34,729 bases of DNA, taken from the NCBI GenBank assembly GCA_030615045.1, contig JAUWZY010000001.1, positions 1-34,729 of the forward strand. The letters are read 5' to 3'. The notes under the pieces are model-generated. The model saw nothing but the letters and a program-made list of their open reading frames with translations, was not told the origin of the DNA and searched no databases. This stretch comes from Chloroflexota bacterium. Its GTDB lineage: Bacteria; Chloroflexota; Dehalococcoidia; SZUA-161; JAUWZY01. The translations under genes and the position numbers were made by a program. Of this stretch, positions 2,720-34,232 are shown one piece after another. Each line of letters starts with the position of its first letter. The stretch's first letter is position 1.

Positions 2720-3619
2720 TCAACTCCTGCTGTTATCCCTCGGCTCTTTGGGATAGGCGAAGACCATCCGTGCTGCTGCCCTCTGCAGCACCCTGGTGAC
2801 CACGACATCGATCTCAGCGTTGAGGTACCTTCGCCCCGCGTCGACTACGACTACGGTGCCATCGTCGAGGAAGCCAACCCCCTGTCCTGCCTCCTTACCC
2901 TCTTGAATGATGCGCAGCCTCATCTCATCGCCGGCGAGGACCACAGGTCTTATTGCGTTAGCCAGCTCATTAACGTTGAGCACGCGGATTCCCTGAAGTC
3001 CAGCCGCCCGGCTCAGGTTGAGGTCGTTGGTGACAATGGGGCAGCGGAGGCTTTTAGCCAACTGCACCAGCTTAGCATCAACCTCGGGGATGTTCTCGAA
3101 ATCGGTGTCCAGGACTTGAACTGGCACATCCGAGTCCGTTAGCATCCTGACCAGGATGCTAACGCCCCGGTGCCCCCGGTTACGCCGCATCGGGTCCGGC
3201 GAATCGGCGATATGCTGCAGCTCATTGAGCACAAACCTGGGAATGAGCAAGGTCTCGCGGATAAAGCCCGTCTGGCTGATATCGGCGATGCGGCCATCAA
3301 TAATGACATTAGTATCCAAGATGATGCGCCCATCATCACGGTGCGTGTCGCTTGGCGGAGCCGAGGTGGACAGCTGAAGGACATCGCGATTCCTCCCAAT
3401 CCAGCGCCAGAAAGAGGCGATGGCAGCCGGAGTAAACGCAAAGCCCACGGTGGCGCTGAGAAGCGCCACAGACATGCTCCACAGAAGCTCTCCACCTGGG
3501 GCCCAGTTGGCGATGAATAAGCCCAGCGCCCATCCGATAAAGCCCAGGACCACGGTGCCAATAAGCCGAATCACAATGCTAGCAGACATAAGCCCTGATA
3601 AGCCTCTCAGTCTTGACAA
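2720..3619 (-). CDS. membrane-anchored PIN/TRAM domain protein (YacL-like predicted RNase)
   Basis: The N-terminus is hydrophobic (IVIRLIGTVVLGFIGWALGLFIANW..., ...LLSATVGFAFTPAAIASFW). A PIN domain follows (IILDTNVIIDGRIADI...PRFVLNELQHIADS...IVTNDLNL), then a C-terminal TRAM-like beta domain (MRLRIIQEGKEAGQGVGFLDDGTVVVVD...VVVTRVLQ). The TTG start at 3619 lies 5 nt after GGAGGT; the ATG at 3589 is an alternative. Confidence 0.85.
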   Translation of the reverse strand: MSRLRGLSGLMSASIVIRLIGTVVLGFIGWALGLFIANWAPGGELLWSMSVALLSATVGFAFTPAAIASFWRWIGRNRDVLQLSTSAPPSDTHRDDGRIILDTNVIIDGRIADISQTGFIRETLLIPRFVLNELQHIADSPDPMRRNRGHRGVSILVRMLTDSDVPVQVLDTDFENIPEVDAKLVQLAKSLRCPIVTNDLNLSRAAGLQGIRVLNVNELANAIRPVVLAGDEMRLRIIQEGKEAGQGVGFLDDGTVVVVDAGRRYLNAEIDVVVTRVLQRAAARMVFAYPKEPRDNSRS

Positions 3620-3699: not shown

Positions 3700-3800
3700 T
3701 CGTGGTGGCAACCTAGCCGTCATAGCCTTGTAGAGGCCTTAGACCCTTGGCTTTGCGTCCCCTGATTTCTCAGGGTTTGCCCTTTTCACCGTCTACTATT
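3700..3800 (-). promoter_or_regulatory. c-di-GMP-I (GEMM-I) riboswitch aptamer, copy 1
   Basis: The minus-sense RNA is GGUGAAAAGGGCAAACCCUGAGAAAUCAGGGGACGCAAAGCCAAGGGUCUAAGGCCUCUACAAGGCUAUGACGGCUAGGUUGCC. It carries the hallmark blocks GGGCAAACC, a hairpin capped by a GAAA tetraloop (CUGA-GAAA-UCAG), GGGACGCAAAGCC and a CUAA-containing second hairpin. The order and spacing match my recollection of the Vibrio cholerae Vc2 aptamer. Confidence 0.85.
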
Positions 3801-3845: not shown

Positions 3846-4021
3846 GCCCGCACTTTTTTTGAGATTGTTTAGCAACTCGTCCAACCGCAGTTTATCAATA
3901 GCGATGTTCCTCCTCTTCTTGCCCAGACCCGGGCAAGACTGCTTGAAGTCACAAAAATCCAAGGGAACAGCTATAGCCAGATAGCCTTGAAGCCACTAAG
4001 AAGGGAGCAGACGCTGCCCAT

Positions 4022-5113
4022 CTAATCTCGCTGCAGGGGGGTATCGGCTTTGCCGGTTGCGCTTTTCCAGATCTGGTTGCCGCCAGCTCGCTTAGCCCGA
4101 AACATAGCCTCATCTGCTGCTTGCAGGAGTTGTTCTTGGGTTACCGCGTCCTCGGGGTACGAAGCGATTCCAATACTGACTGTAGCCTATACCTCGCCGT
4201 GTATCGGCGCCAATTTCGCTATCGACTGTGCAACCCGCTTGGCAGCCTGGTAAGCGCCCTCAGCGGATGCAGCGGGCAGAAGGACTACAAACTCATCTCC
4301 GCCATACCTAGCCACTATGTCTGACACTCGGATCCCCGAGCTGATACTTCGTCCCAATGCCTGCAATAGCTTATCCCCGGCTCGATGGCCAAATCGATCG
4401 TTCACTTCTTTCAGGTCATCAACATCGATCATGAGAATCGAGAGTGGGTCTCCACTTCTGTGGGCCCGTGCCAGCTCTCGAGCCATCTGTTCCCTGAGGA
4501 AGCGAATGTTGTGAAGCCGTGTCAGGTCATCGATGAGAGAAAGCTCCTTTGCCCGGTCATAGAGGCAGGCGTTTTCAATGGCCAGTCCAGCAAGGCTGGC
4601 AAAAGCCACAAGGAACTCAACATCCTCGGTGGTGAAACCTGCGAGCTCTCCTGTCCTATCAACGCCAATGACTCCGATTACTTCCTCCCGAACATGAATA
4701 GGGACATCGATGAAGCATTTTGTGCCCAGCGCGGCGAGGCCCTCTCTGGAATCACGGCAGCGGGGATCGTTCCAGGGGTCGTCCACGACGATCGGCCTTT
4801 TCTCAAACACAGCGCAGAGCGCCGGATTTTGGATACCGGGATCCAGCGAGATCACGTTCATCACAACCTCGGGTGGCACGTTCTCGCCAAACCAGGCCAT
4901 GCCTCGGAGCACGCCAGCTTCCCTGTCCACCAGCCCAAGCCAGCCCCGGTCCCAGGCCAGGCGCTCTTGCAAGGACTTCATAATGCAATCTATCCTCTCC
5001 TCAAGGGATGCCAGAGCGAGAAGCTTCCGCGCAGTCTGGAATAGTACCTGTAGTTCATGAGTGTGCTCCACCACTTCTACAAACAAGCTCTCTACCTCGC
5101 CTATGCCAATCAC
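4022..5113 (-). pseudogene. GAF-GGDEF diguanylate cyclase interrupted by an in-frame TAG at 4187-4189
   Basis: The track ORF 4187..5113 starts with GTG. It has an N-terminal GAF-like region, an RVSD I-site-like RxxD motif five residues before RYGGDEFVVLL, and MIDVDDLKEVNDRFGHRAGD. It stops at ...PIHGEV-TAG. The same frame continues ATVSIGIASYPEDAVTQEQLLQAADEAMFRAKRAGGNQIW... to a TAG at 4022-4024. That stretch is the conserved C-terminal third of a GGDEF domain. Confidence 0.8.
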
Positions 5114-5127
5114 CTTCAGCCCATCCC

Positions 5128-5214
5128 CTACAGGATCATCAGGATGAGGCCTTTGCCCCCGATGAGGAGTGCAGTAACCATAAGAGCTAATATCCTCTCC
5201 TTCTTGCTAACCAT
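5128..5214 (-). CDS. possible 28-aa hydrophobic micro-protein upstream of the GGDEF gene
   Basis: ATG at 5214 is preceded by AAGGGAG. The product is MVSKKERILALMVTALLIGGKGLILMIL, with a stop 14 nt before the GGDEF GTG start. It is too short for the ORF track and I cannot assess homology. Confidence 0.25.
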   Translation of the reverse strand: MVSKKERILALMVTALLIGGKGLILMIL

Positions 5215-6545: not shown

Positions 6546-7355
6546 CTATAGCGGCAAGGTGAAGGAACACTTGCTTCCCTTCCCTTCCTCGCTTTCCATC
6601 CAGATGCGGCCACCATGTGCTTGCACCAGCCCCTTGGAGATGGACAGCCCCAGTCCTAAACCTTCCTCTTGGGGCAGCCTTTTCTCAATCCGATACATCC
6701 AATCAAACACTCTCTCCAGGTCCCCAGCAGGTATGCCTATTCCCTGGTCAGCGACGCTGATATGCAACTCCGAGCCCCCCCGGTGTGCCTGTACCACCAC
6801 GCTGCTTCCCTCTTTGGAATACTTGCAGGCGTTGTCGATCAGGTTATCCAGTACCTGCCTAATGCGCTTAGCATCAATGTTCACCCTCGGTAATCCCTTC
6901 CTCATGTTCAACACTATCTGGTGCCTGGGTGCCGTCAACTTAGCCTCAGCCACCGCCTCTCGGATCAGTTTTGAGATGCTGATGGGCTGTTTTTCCAGCT
7001 TCAGCAGCCCTGCATTAAGCTGGGACATATCTAGCAGATGGTCTACAAGCTCGGTGAGCCTATCAGTTGCTCTGTCTATGGATTGCAGGTGCTCCTGTTT
7101 CTCCTCACACCTCAGCCTCCGGTCGTAGTCCAGCAGCATGGTAGTATACCCCTTGATGGCTGCCAGTGGAGTGCGCAACTCGTGCGAAACTGTGGAAAGG
7201 AGATCGCTCTTAAGCCTGTCTAGCTCCTCGTATTCAACCACTTTCCTCTCAAGCTGCTGGCGCTCGGCTTCTACCTTTTCCAATTCAGCAATTCGTTGGC
7301 ATAGTTCTGCCAATTCATTTGTGATCCGCTTTTTTGTCTTAGCTTCGTCTTTCAC
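6546..7355 (-). CDS. cytoplasmic histidine kinase lacking a recognisable sensor domain (coiled coil + HisKA + HATPase_c)
   Basis: The H-box is STVSHELRTPLAAIKGY. The N, G1 and G2 blocks are VLDNLIDNACKY, VADQGIGIP and GLGLGLSISKGLVQAHGG. The first ~50 aa form a charged heptad-like helix (ELAELCQRIAELEKVEAERQQLERKVVEYEELDRLK). There are no TM segments. The start is GTG at 7355. Confidence 0.9.
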   Translation of the reverse strand: MKDEAKTKKRITNELAELCQRIAELEKVEAERQQLERKVVEYEELDRLKSDLLSTVSHELRTPLAAIKGYTTMLLDYDRRLRCEEKQEHLQSIDRATDRLTELVDHLLDMSQLNAGLLKLEKQPISISKLIREAVAEAKLTAPRHQIVLNMRKGLPRVNIDAKRIRQVLDNLIDNACKYSKEGSSVVVQAHRGGSELHISVADQGIGIPAGDLERVFDWMYRIEKRLPQEEGLGLGLSISKGLVQAHGGRIWMESEEGKGSKCSFTLPL

Positions 7356-7435
7356 CTTCTACCCCCCCCCGAAACAGGCACCAATTTCACCTGAGAGCCA
7401 GAGGGGCGAACCGCCGATTCGCGCTATGACATCAA

Positions 7436-7477
7436 GGAAATAAAAACGCGCTTCCCCGGGCCTCCCAGGAAAGCACG
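7436..7477 (-). terminator. intrinsic terminator, putative expression platform of riboswitch 2
   Basis: The minus-sense RNA is CGUGCUUUCC-UGGGAGGCCC-GGGAAGCGCG (10-bp stem with two G-U pairs) followed by UUUUUAUUU. It lies between the aptamer and the kinase start. Confidence 0.55.
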
Positions 7478-7487
7478 TCCCCTGTGC

Positions 7488-7586
7488 TTGCTTCGCCTTC
7501 GGCAGCCCGGCTGTCATAGATTGCTAACCCTTAGACCCGAGGCTTTGCGTCACCGCCTTTCAGCGGTTTTGCCCTTTCGGTGCGTA
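7488..7586 (-). promoter_or_regulatory. c-di-GMP-I (GEMM-I) riboswitch aptamer, copy 2
   Basis: The minus-sense RNA is CGCACCGAAAGGGCAAAACCGCUGAAAGGCGGUGACGCAAAGCCUCGGGUCUAAGGGUUAGCAAUCUAUGACAGCCGGGCUGCCGAAGGCG. It shows the same conserved blocks as copy 1: GGGCAAAACC, a GAAA-capped hairpin CCGCU-GAAA-GGCGG, GACGCAAAGCC and GGGUCUAAGG...CUAUGAC. Stem sequences co-vary between the two copies. Confidence 0.85.
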
Positions 7587-7627
7587 TTCAATTGTTGCTG
7601 GGTCAGATCACCCAACTCAGCGGGCGT

Positions 7628-7657
7628 ATTTTAACATATGTAGTTACTGTTTGTCAA
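7628..7657 (-). promoter_or_regulatory. sigma70-type promoter driving riboswitch 2 and the HK operon
   Basis: The minus sense reads TTGACA (7657-7652), an 18-nt spacer, then TAAAAT (7633-7628). Confidence 0.55.
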
Positions 7658-7863
7658 CCCGGGCCGGCGTTCCTGCATTTACTCACGTTCGGAAGCACCC
7701 CTTCCTCCTCCTTCCAGGGGAGGCGGCGCTATGACCACCTCCAATTTTATCTCCGCCATGGACTGACTTTGCCAAGTGCGAAGCATTTGACCAAACCGGG
7801 TGAGGCGCAAGCCCGCGTTAGATGAAGTCACAGCTTATTTTTGGGGCAAGGAAACCACTTCGA

Positions 7864-8615: not shown

Positions 8616-9386
8616 ATGGAAAAGGTGAGGATCATACCTTGTTTAGATGTAAAGGACGGCAGGGTAGTCAAAGGAATAAGGTTTGTCGACCTGAGGGACG
8701 CAGCTGACCCTGTAGAGGCAGCGGCTGCCTACTGCCAGCAGGGCGCTGACGAGCTGGTTTTCTTGGATATCGCCGCCACCGTGGAAGGGCGAGGAACCAG
8801 GATCGAATGGGTAAAAAGGGTGCGCGAGGTGGCTACCATCCCCTTTGCTGTAGGAGGTGGGATCAGAGATATTGGCGATATGAAAGCCCTGTTCGACATA
8901 GGCTGCGATAAGATATCGATTAACACTGCCGCTGTGAGGAATCCCAACCTGATCAAACAGGCGGTCGAGCAATTCGGCGGGGAACGAATTGTGGTTGCTA
9001 TCGATGGGAGGAAGAACCCGGTCGGCGGCGGTCTGCCCAGGCTGGAGGTCGTGGTCAAAAGTGGTGAAGAGGCCACAGGGATGGATATCGTCGCCTGGGC
9101 GAGGAAGGCAGAGGAACTGGGGGCAGGCGAGATCCTGCTCACCAGCAAGGATGCCGATGGCACAAAGGAGGGCTATGACCTGGAGATGACCAAGGCAGTA
9201 GCGGAAGCAGTTAGCATCCCGATTATCGCCTCCGGGGGAGCAGGGAGGCTGGAGCACCTCTATGAAGCTGTCGTTTTGGGCAAAGCATCTGCCGTCCTTG
9301 CTGCCTCTGTTTTCCACTTCGGGGAGATCTCCATCCCTCAAGCAAAAAGATACCTGAAGGAGAAGGGGATACCAGTGACAACTTAG
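8616..9386 (+). CDS. hisF: imidazole glycerol phosphate synthase cyclase subunit HisF
   Basis: MEKVRIIPCLDVKDGRVVKGIRFVDLRDAADPVE...DELVFLDI...IPFAVGGGIR...ISINTAAV...VVAIDG...GAGEILLTSKDADGTKEGYDL...IPIIASGGAG is the canonical HisF barrel. ATG at 8616 lies 8 nt after CAGGAGG. The track ORF start at 8463 is an upstream extension. Confidence 0.9.
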   Translation: MEKVRIIPCLDVKDGRVVKGIRFVDLRDAADPVEAAAAYCQQGADELVFLDIAATVEGRGTRIEWVKRVREVATIPFAVGGGIRDIGDMKALFDIGCDKISINTAAVRNPNLIKQAVEQFGGERIVVAIDGRKNPVGGGLPRLEVVVKSGEEATGMDIVAWARKAEELGAGEILLTSKDADGTKEGYDLEMTKAVAEAVSIPIIASGGAGRLEHLYEAVVLGKASAVLAASVFHFGEISIPQAKRYLKEKGIPVTT

Positions 9387-33108: not shown

Positions 33109-34232
33109 AGGGCTTGGATCATCCCGGACCTGACCTCGAACTTGGCAGCTCGAGCTAAGAAAGCGGGCTCAAAGCGGTCGGCATCGCTGGCTGTGATCAC
33201 CACTTGCTGATAGCCCAGGGCGGCTTGGAGTAAATGATGGCGACGCTGGGCATCGAGCTCGGAGAGGACATCATCCAGAAGCAGAACCGGCGAGTCGCCA
33301 GCCCTTGCTGCTATGAATTTGGCCTCGGCCAGCTTTAAGGACAGGGCTATAGTTCGATTTTGCCCCCGAGAACCATAAATGTTCATGTCTCTTTCATTGA
33401 CCAGGAAGCGGAGGTCATCACGGTGCGGGCCGATCAAGGTCATCCCCTGAGCCACCTCTTTATCTCGGGCGGCGGATAGCGCTTCCTGAAATGCCTCTTT
33501 GTCGACGCTGCTTTGATAGATCATTTTCAGCCTCTCTTGTCCCTCAGTTAGCTGATCATGGATCGGCCGAGCCAGCTCATCAAGCGCAGCCACCGTTTGC
33601 TGGCGCAGGGCTATGAGATAAGAGCCCGCTTCCACTAATTCCCGGTCCCAAAAATCAAGCTCCTCGGGGCGAGCTCGGTGCTCAGCTATCAGGCGCAGGA
33701 GATAATTTCGCCGCTGCAGAACCCTATGGTATCGCTGTAACGCTCTGAGATAGCGGTGGTCGGCTTGGGAATTGGTGATGTCAAGATAGCGGCGACGCAA
33801 TGCCGGTTCGCCATCAACGAGGTCGATGTCTTTGGGACTGAACAAGACCACGTTGATTAGCCCAATGAGGTCCATGGCGCGGCGGTCGACGCCATTTACT
33901 CGAATCCGCTTCTGGACATAACTAGCTCCCGCTTCTGCAGCGACGATTTTGCCCCTCAGGGCGATCTCCACCCGCAGGCTCCCGCTAGCCCTCTGCGCCT
34001 GGACCTCAAGGCGAGCAACTGGGTCCTTTTCTCTTAACGCAGACCAGTTTATCAGCTCTACGTCACTGGCAGTACGAGGTGATTTAGTCGTGGCCAAAAG
34101 GTAGATGGCCTCAAGAAGGTTGCTCTTGCCCTGAGCATTGCCCCCCAGAAGTATCAGTATGTCTGGTGGCAGGTGAAGTTCGAGGCGGATGTAATTGCGA
34201 AAGTTTGCCAGACTTAGATGCTGAATCCGTAT
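33105..34232 (-). CDS. recF: DNA replication/repair protein RecF, apparently initiating at a non-canonical codon
   Basis: The track ORF begins at TTG 34097, but the same frame is open upstream and encodes (I)[50 protein letters not shown]. That stretch is the RecF N-terminal strand plus Walker A. An in-frame TGA lies 18 codons upstream of the ATA at 34232-34230, and no ATG, GTG or TTG lies between them. The ATA sits 6 nt after GGAGG. The C-terminal [11 protein letters not shown] Walker B is present. Confidence 0.85.

What the first reader, a model, noticed from the sequence alone, without database searches (positions are those of the whole stretch)
4022..4189. In-frame TAG splits the GGDEF domain of the only cyclase in the locus
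The ORF ends ...AKLAPIHGEV-TAG (4187-4189). The same frame continues without interruption as ATVSIGIASYPEDAVTQEQLLQAADEAMFRAKRAGGNQIW for 54 more codons. That is exactly the conserved C-terminal part of a GGDEF domain (TvSiGiA ... AD.AmY.AK..GrN).

Several explanations are possible:
- The gene is a very recent nonsense pseudogene, since there is no further decay.
- The TAG is a sequencing or assembly error.
- The cyclase is expressed by stop-codon read-through or recoding.

A truncated product would probably be inactive. Other genes in the window (fabD, recF) terminate with TAG, so the codon is not globally reassigned. Loss or conditional expression of the cyclase beside two c-di-GMP riboswitches matters for how the circuit is interpreted.
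Basis: seen in the sequence. Interest (0 to 1): 0.6.

Follow-up and report, generated by a model that had tools for sequence, protein, structure and literature searches.

The report
Amber nonsense codon in GGDEF cyclase
One base change (CAG to TAG), seen only in this assembly, cuts short a conserved c-di-GMP-making enzyme gene of an uncultured sediment Chloroflexota bacterium; this is an ordinary recent gene knockout or a consensus error, not a recoding signal.

Summary
On the minus strand, a GAF-GGDEF gene (start 5113) meets an in-frame TAG at 4189-4187. The same frame then continues for 54 codons to the natural TAG at 4024-4022, and those codons encode the missing end of the GGDEF domain.

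- **What relatives carry.** All seven related contigs, including a 21-kb syntenic one, have CAG (Gln) at this codon. Assembled contigs from all 16 public metagenome runs I laid on the site also carry it. The TAG is therefore a one-off C-to-T change in this assembly.
- **Age of the change.** There is no other damage. dN/dS against relatives is 0.25-0.39, the same as between intact copies, so the change is recent or artefactual.
- **TAG as a stop codon.** TAG ends 11 of the 21 other genes in the window, and this gene's own natural stop is also TAG. No RNA structure follows the premature TAG.
- **Effect on the protein.** The 308-aa product lacks a core strand, the last helix (with invariant D334 and K341) and the final strand. 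It is almost certainly inactive.

My estimate is a real nonsense allele about 0.65, a sequencing or consensus error about 0.28, and read-through or pyrrolysine under 0.05.

The parts
4190..5113 (-). The 308 sense codons of the GAF-GGDEF diguanylate cyclase gene that precede the premature stop. GAF is about residues 36-181. The GGDEF domain starts at residue 193. The I-site is R262-V-S-D265 and the active-site motif is G271-G-D-E-F275.
   Evidence: ORF list and translation. Pfam GAF 64 bits and GGDEF 119 bits covering profile 2-112 of 161. The start position is shared with orthologues L084 and L003.
4187..4189 (-). Premature amber codon TAG at codon 309. The ancestral state is CAG (Gln); the change is C to T on the coding strand, which is G to A at + strand position 4189.
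   Evidence: Sequence. CAG in L001, L002, L003 and L084-L087. G at 4189 in the contigs of 16 of 16 public runs. It is the only position in 4020-4420 where the window differs from every run.
4025..4186 (-). 54 in-frame codons that encode the rest of the GGDEF domain: strand 312-319, helix 326-342 with invariant D334 and K341, and strand 348-350. They are no longer translated if the TAG terminates.
   Evidence: Translation. Pfam profile positions 113-161 are recovered only with read-through. AlphaFold2 model secondary structure, mean pLDDT 87.7. Invariant columns.
4022..4024 (-). Natural stop codon of the gene, also TAG.
   Evidence: Orthologues L001 and L084 end at the same ...CGAGATTAG.
3704..3791 (-). 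c-di-GMP-I riboswitch just downstream of the cyclase gene, leading into the PIN-domain gene at 3619-2720. The cyclase-then-riboswitch order is conserved in relatives.
   Evidence: Rfam RF01051, 80.3 bits. The same element follows the intact cyclase gene in L084, L085, L001 and L003.

Best explanation
A single C-to-T transition changed the Gln309 codon (CAG) of a conserved GAF-GGDEF diguanylate cyclase gene into the amber stop TAG. This happened in the lineage, or the local population, from which this metagenome-assembled contig came. TAG is the organism's main stop codon, so release factor 1 should end translation there. The result is a 308-aa protein with an intact GAF sensor domain and the GGDEF motif, but without the last beta-alpha-beta unit of the catalytic domain. 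That unit includes the helix carrying the invariant Asp334 and Lys341. Such a fragment should be misfolded or catalytically dead, so the gene is a very young nonsense pseudogene, either fixed or still segregating. The cell would lose this local source of c-di-GMP. The two neighbouring c-di-GMP riboswitches would then depend on any other cyclases in the genome. Steps shown here: the TAG itself, the ancestral CAG, that the TAG is unique to this assembly, the absence of other decay, TAG's use as a terminator, and which structural elements are lost. Steps inferred: that the TAG exists in the source DNA rather than being a consensus error, that the fragment is inactive, and the effect on the riboswitches.
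For: - **In-frame TAG inside the domain.** The frame continues intact for 54 codons.
- **Relatives carry CAG.** All 7 related contigs, at 93-95% DNA identity and including a 21-kb syntenic contig, have CAG and full-length 360-364-aa products.
- **Public runs carry CAG.** In 16 of 16 runs, from sediment, marsh, hydrothermal-vent, groundwater and subsurface samples, every contig laid over the site reads G at 4189.
- **A single-step change.** CAG to TAG is one transition.
- **No other lesion.** The gene has 16 window-unique substitutions (7 synonymous, 9 non-synonymous including the stop) and no indels.
- **Normal selection until recently.** dN/dS between the window and relatives is 0.25-0.39, against 0.24-0.40 among intact copies.
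- **The contig looks clean.** No other gene in the window is split by a stop, and rpoB, rpoC and valS are intact. This argues against an error-prone assembly.
- **The other oddity is real.** The ATA start of recF is shared by relatives in four runs, so it is a lineage trait and not an error.
- **The module varies in relatives.** L084 and L085 lack 686 bp of the riboswitch-controlled PIN gene. The window lacks 3.1 kb of the kinase operon, and an independent run carries the same junction.
- **TAG is a terminator.** It ends 11 of the 21 other genes.
- **Lost structure.** The model places strand 312-319, helix 326-342 and strand 348-350 after the stop. D334 and K341 are invariant in 32 homologues.
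Against: - No read data from the sample that produced this contig could be found. The best public run holds only 0.44 of the locus's sampled words, and all runs are other strains at 95-99% identity. The TAG therefore rests on the assembly consensus alone.
- No public run or contig carries the TAG allele, as an error would also predict.
- The lack of any further decay fits an artefact as well as it fits a very recent mutation.
Confidence: 0.65

Rival explanations
1. The TAG is not in the organism's DNA. It would be a sequencing, polishing or consensus error, or a rare variant or damaged-base call that the assembler happened to pick. The real gene would read CAG and encode an intact 363-aa cyclase.
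For: The TAG is a one-off: 16 of 16 runs and 7 of 7 related contigs read CAG. No run holds the words that span the TAG allele. The gene is otherwise perfect, with normal dN/dS. Cyclase followed by riboswitch is conserved and intact in all relatives. The change is a G:C to A:T transition, which is also the type produced by cytosine deamination damage.
Against: The contig shows no other sign of poor consensus quality. It has no frameshifts or split genes across 34.7 kb, including the long rpoB, rpoC and valS genes. The suspicious recF ATA start proved to be shared by relatives. From general knowledge, substitution errors in short-read consensus are far rarer than real lineage-specific substitutions, of which this gene alone has 15 others. 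Nonsense pseudogenes are common in uncultured Chloroflexota assemblies; earlier notes e1-928807 and e1-778602 describe two, which I did not check.
Confidence: 0.28
2. The amber codon is translated, so a full-length cyclase is still made. This could happen through a pyrrolysine system (pylTSBCD), through a tRNA with a CUA anticodon, or through leaky near-cognate reading by tRNA-Gln. The output might be conditional or low-level.
For: Pyl-encoding systems (pylSc/pylSn) have been reported in metagenomic Chloroflexi, including a Dehalococcoides-related lineage (PMC5424206). RpoB places this organism nearest to Dehalococcoidia. The downstream 54 codons are undamaged. From general knowledge, near-cognate misreading of UAG commonly inserts Gln, which would restore the wild-type protein in a small fraction of products.
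Against: The TAG is not conserved in any orthologue; all have CAG, or Lys/Ala in distant ones. It is therefore not an evolved recoding site. TAG terminates 11 of the 21 other genes and this gene's own natural end. Two of those stops (kinase, hisF) are in frame with the next gene, so efficient read-through would create fusions. The RNA downstream of the TAG is no more structured than shuffled controls (z = +1.63). There is no tRNA gene in the window. GGDEF enzymes are not known pyrrolysine proteins (general knowledge).
Confidence: 0.04

Closest known systems
GGDEF-domain diguanylate cyclases with an N-terminal sensor domain, such as PleD (PDB 1W25/2V0N), DosC (4ZVE) and WspR (3BRE/3I5A)
   Same: The orthologue P0122 (93% identical to the window's read-through product) matches the GGDEF domains of DosC (E 8e-34) and PleD (E 7e-32) over residues 186-350. 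The window's product contains the GGDEF motif and an RxxD I-site five residues upstream, and the alignments show the conserved Asp/Lys of the C-terminal helix. Pfam finds GAF plus GGDEF in it.
   Different: As encoded under table 11, the window's copy stops at residue 308 and lacks the last about 50 residues of the domain. The sensor is a GAF domain, not receiver or globin domains. The clade has GGN where PleD has GRN after the conserved Lys; the PleD detail is from my own recollection.
Ordinary nonsense pseudogenes in bacterial genomes and metagenome-assembled genomes
   Same: A single in-frame stop lies inside a conserved domain, close relatives have intact orthologues, and the ancestral sense codon is one transition away.
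   Different: The gene shows no secondary decay at all, and the allele has not been seen in any independent data set, so an artefact cannot be excluded.
Pyrrolysine (UAG) recoding, as in the methylamine methyltransferases MtmB/MtbB/MttB
   Same: An in-frame UAG with an intact downstream frame, in a phylum where Pyl systems have been reported (PMC5424206).
   Different: True Pyl sites keep the TAG across orthologues; here every orthologue has CAG. The protein family is unrelated to known Pyl proteins. No downstream structure was found. The pyl genes could not be searched.

Membership tests
GGDEF diguanylate cyclase (Pfam PF00990) | Significant match to the GGDEF profile above the gathering threshold | tested here: met
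   119.3 bits against a cutoff of 23.8 for the truncated product; 155.7 bits with read-through.
GGDEF diguanylate cyclase (Pfam PF00990) | GG(D/E)EF active-site motif and the metal-binding Asp residues | tested here: met
   RYGGDEF at 269-275. D230 and D232 (MIDVDD) are invariant or nearly invariant across homologues.
GGDEF diguanylate cyclase (Pfam PF00990) | Complete catalytic domain, including the C-terminal strand-helix-strand with the conserved Asp and Lys (here D334, K341) | tested here: not met
   The table-11 product ends at residue 308 and covers profile positions 2-112 of 161 only. The lost elements are strand 312-319, helix 326-342 and strand 348-350.
Recent nonsense pseudogene | In-frame stop at a position where intact orthologues have a sense codon | tested here: met
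   TAG against CAG in 7 contigs and 16 runs.
Recent nonsense pseudogene | The allele is present in the reads of the source sample | not testable with these tools
   No run holding the source strain was found; the best word share was 0.44 and all runs are other strains.
Recent nonsense pseudogene | Relaxed selection or secondary lesions (expected only if the pseudogene is old) | tested here: not met
   No indels. dN/dS is 0.25-0.39 against 0.24-0.40 among intact copies. If real, the lesion is young.
Pyrrolysine or other programmed UAG recoding site | TAG conserved at the site among orthologues | tested here: not met
   Gln (CAG) in close orthologues; Gln, Lys or Ala in distant ones.
Pyrrolysine or other programmed UAG recoding site | pylT, pylS and pylBCD, or a CUA-anticodon tRNA, in the genome | not testable with these tools
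There is no tRNA in the window.
Pyrrolysine or other programmed UAG recoding site | Stimulatory RNA structure downstream of the UAG (supportive, not strictly defining) | tested here: not met
   MFE -31.4 kcal/mol against a shuffle mean of -37.6; z = +1.63.

The most novel reading that the evidence does not exclude
The organism, an uncultured sediment Dehalococcoidia-like Chloroflexota bacterium, carries a regulated pyrrolysine or amber-suppressor system. The newly arisen amber codon in its riboswitch-linked cyclase would then be partly read through. c-di-GMP synthesis at this locus would depend on the suppressor's activity. This would be a chance, newly formed link between genetic-code expansion and second-messenger signalling.
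Probability: 0.03. Interest if true: 0.6.

Novelty: already known. Interest (0 to 1): 0.12.

Why it matters
This matters mainly for annotation and for reading the neighbouring c-di-GMP module. The cyclase that sits between the two c-di-GMP riboswitches should be annotated as disrupted in this assembly, not as a 308-aa enzyme. The "circuit" here should not be assumed to make its own ligand. In all sampled relatives the same cyclase is intact and is followed by the same riboswitch. The relatives differ in other parts of the module, so the module varies between strains. The case is also a reminder that an intact frame after an amber codon does not indicate recoding.

Tried and rejected
- **Finding the source reads.** Three run searches gave a best share of 0.44, and no run holds the TAG-spanning words. 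Exact-pattern scans of genome contigs (TAG allele only) and metagenome contigs (either allele) found nothing. An exact-protein look-up of the 308-aa product gave no contig.
- **Signs of decay.** G199R and V260G first looked like decay. They are shared with the intact orthologue P0122 and so are clade polymorphisms.
- **A second consensus error.** I tested whether recF's ATA start was another G:C to A:T error. Relatives in four runs share it, so it is not.
- **A damage or error signature.** I looked for an excess of window-unique G:C to A:T changes in the gene. The numbers are too small to tell: 9 of 16.
- **Methylation hotspot.** The mutated C lies in GTAC. GTAC is only mildly under-represented (0.60 of the Markov expectation), like several other palindromes, so this is not informative.
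- **Tandem stops after TAG-terminated genes.** No clear pattern.
- **Downstream RNA structure.** None.
- **Close orthologues in genome contigs.** Only hits at 36% identity or less.

Full report
**Observation**

The gene lies on the minus strand. A GAF-GGDEF ORF starts at a GTG at 5113 and runs for 308 codons, ending ...AKLAPIHGEV. It then meets TAG at 4189-4187. The same frame continues for 54 codons (ATVSIGIASYPEDAVTQEQLLQAADEAMFRAKRAGGNQIWKSATGKADTPLQRD) to a second TAG at 4024-4022.

Pfam finds a GAF domain (residues 36-181) and a GGDEF domain. In the 308-aa product the GGDEF match covers only profile positions 2-112 of 161 (119 bits). With the TAG read through it covers 2-161 of 161 (156 bits).

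**What relatives have at this codon**

A protein search found full-length orthologues of 360-364 aa at 93% identity and a graded series down to about 50%. In the alignment, position 309 is Gln in the close orthologues and Gln, Lys or Ala in the distant ones.

I fetched seven contigs that encode the three closest orthologues: L001-L003 and L084-L087. L084 is a 21-kb syntenic locus with the order hisF, NrpR-like gene, GltS-like gene, kinase/regulator operon, micro-ORF, cyclase. All seven read GTA/GTG-CAG-GCT where the window reads GTA-TAG-GCT.

I then laid Logan contigs from 16 public metagenome runs on the site. The runs come from sediment, marsh, hydrothermal-vent, groundwater and subsurface samples in many studies. 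Every contig over the site reads G at + strand 4189, which is CAG on the coding strand, and several runs hold more than one haplotype. Position 4189 is the only position in 4020-4420 where the window differs from all of them.

None of these runs holds the window's own strain. Identities are 95-99% and the best word share is 0.44. No run holds the 31-mers that span the TAG allele. The TAG is therefore a derived one-off, produced from CAG by one C-to-T transition.

**Age and state of the lesion**

The window's copy has 16 substitutions not seen in L001 or L084. Seven are synonymous and nine are non-synonymous, counting the stop. There are no indels.

Two changes first looked damaging, G199R in the DxLTGLxN motif and V260G. 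Both are shared with the intact orthologue P0122, which occurs on five contigs, so they are clade polymorphisms.

Nei-Gojobori dN/dS between the window and its relatives is 0.25-0.39. Among the intact relatives it is 0.24-0.40. The gene was therefore under normal purifying selection for essentially all of its roughly 5% divergence. The stop is either very young or not real.

**Is TAG a stop codon in this organism?**

Of 22 confident genes in the window, 12 end in TAG when the premature TAG is taken as this gene's stop. That leaves 11 of the 21 other genes. They include valS, hisF, nusB, recF, yceD, the fabD fusion, the histidine kinase and the OmpR-type regulator. The cyclase's own natural stop is also TAG.

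A six-frame scan found no other gene split by a single stop. The RNA after the TAG folds no better than shuffled controls (z = +1.63). The window has no tRNA gene. Genome-wide reassignment or efficient constitutive suppression is therefore very unlikely.

A regulated pyrrolysine system is not excluded by taxonomy. RpoB places the organism nearest to Dehalococcoidia MAGs, at only 66% identity. Mukai et al. 2017 reported pylSc/pylSn genes in metagenomic Chloroflexi, including a Dehalococcoides-related lineage (PMC5424206). Even if such a system were present, the non-conserved TAG would be an accident being suppressed, not an evolved recoding site.

**Consequence for the protein**

An AlphaFold2 model of the read-through sequence, built on a 32-sequence alignment, has mean pLDDT 87.7. 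It places three elements after residue 309: strand 312-319 (TVSIGIAS), helix 326-342 and strand 348-350.

D334 and K341 in that helix, and G315 in the strand, are invariant in 32 homologues. The orthologue P0122 aligns over this region with the solved GGDEF domains of DosC and PleD. From my own knowledge of PleD, the Lys in this helix contacts the GTP phosphates.

A product ending at residue 308 keeps the GAF domain, the RxxD I-site (R262-D265) and the GGDEF motif (271-275). It lacks a core strand and the final helix, so it should be unfolded or inactive. This last step is inference.

**Real mutation or artefact?**

I could not get the source reads, so this stays open.

In favour of a real allele:
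- The contig is otherwise clean, with no frameshifts and intact rpoB, rpoC and valS.
- The other suspicious feature, recF's ATA start, is shared by relatives in four runs and is a lineage trait.
- The c-di-GMP module varies between close relatives. L084 and L085 lack 686 bp of the riboswitch-controlled PIN gene.
- The window lacks 3.1 kb of the kinase operon, which leaves a short fused kinase. An independent run (X2) carries the same junction, while X1, X7 and X9 diverge there.

In favour of an artefact:
- The allele is seen nowhere else.
- The gene shows no other decay.
- The change is a G:C to A:T transition, which is also what cytosine deamination damage produces.

I put a real nonsense allele (fixed or segregating) at about 0.65, an error at about 0.28, and suppression or recoding at about 0.04.

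**Context and verdict**

In all four related loci tested with Rfam (L084, L085, L001, L003), the intact cyclase gene is followed by the same c-di-GMP-I riboswitch. The pairing is therefore conserved, and the window is the exception.

This is an ordinary event: a nonsense-mutated, or mis-called, signalling gene in a MAG. It matters for annotation and for not over-reading the local "circuit". It is not new biology. Earlier notes from this scan describe comparable amber-interrupted genes in other Chloroflexota MAGs that were judged ordinary; I did not check those.

Noticed in passing
window, whole (22 genes): TAG is the commonest stop codon. It ends 12 of 22 confident genes, against 5 TAA and 5 TGA, when the premature TAG is counted as the cyclase's stop. 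In most bacteria TAG is the rarest stop.
   Followed up: partly
window 34230-34232 (minus strand): recF seems to start at ATA, 5 nt after a GGAGG, with no ATG, GTG or TTG upstream of its P-loop. Contigs from four public runs (X1, X2, X7, X9) show no difference at these bases. It is therefore a conserved lineage trait and not an assembly error.
   Followed up: partly
window 7235-7256 vs L084 4770-7881: Relative to the syntenic relative L084, the window lacks 3.1 kb. The missing part covers most of a PAS kinase, a receiver gene and the N-terminal half of a hybrid kinase. The window's 269-aa 'sensor-less' kinase is therefore a fusion of the first about 33 codons of one gene with the HisKA-HATPase end of another. 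A contig in run X2 spans the same junction, while contigs in X1, X7 and X9 diverge there, so both forms exist in nature.
   Followed up: partly
L084 11460-11472 and L085 vs window 2862-3547: Relatives L084 and L085 lack 686 bp of the riboswitch-controlled PIN-domain gene, leaving a 63-aa ORF, while their cyclase is intact. Different members of the same c-di-GMP module are damaged in different lineages.
   Followed up: partly
L084 4444-4529 vs window 7498-7583: The riboswitch ahead of the kinase operon scores best as the c-di-GMP-I-GGC variant (RF03167, 76 bits) in relative L084. In the window it scores best as the standard c-di-GMP-I (RF01051, 86 bits). The surrounding DNA (window 7256-7762) is about 87% identical between the two.
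   Followed up: no
window 6546-6548 and 9384-9386: The TAG stops of the histidine kinase and of hisF are in frame with the next gene (receiver, 148 codons; NrpR-like, 336 codons). Any amber read-through would produce fusion proteins.
   Followed up: no
L084 9891-9986, L085 1847-1942 (window about 5128-5214): A 31-codon ORF just upstream of the cyclase is called as a gene in the relatives' contigs.
   Followed up: no
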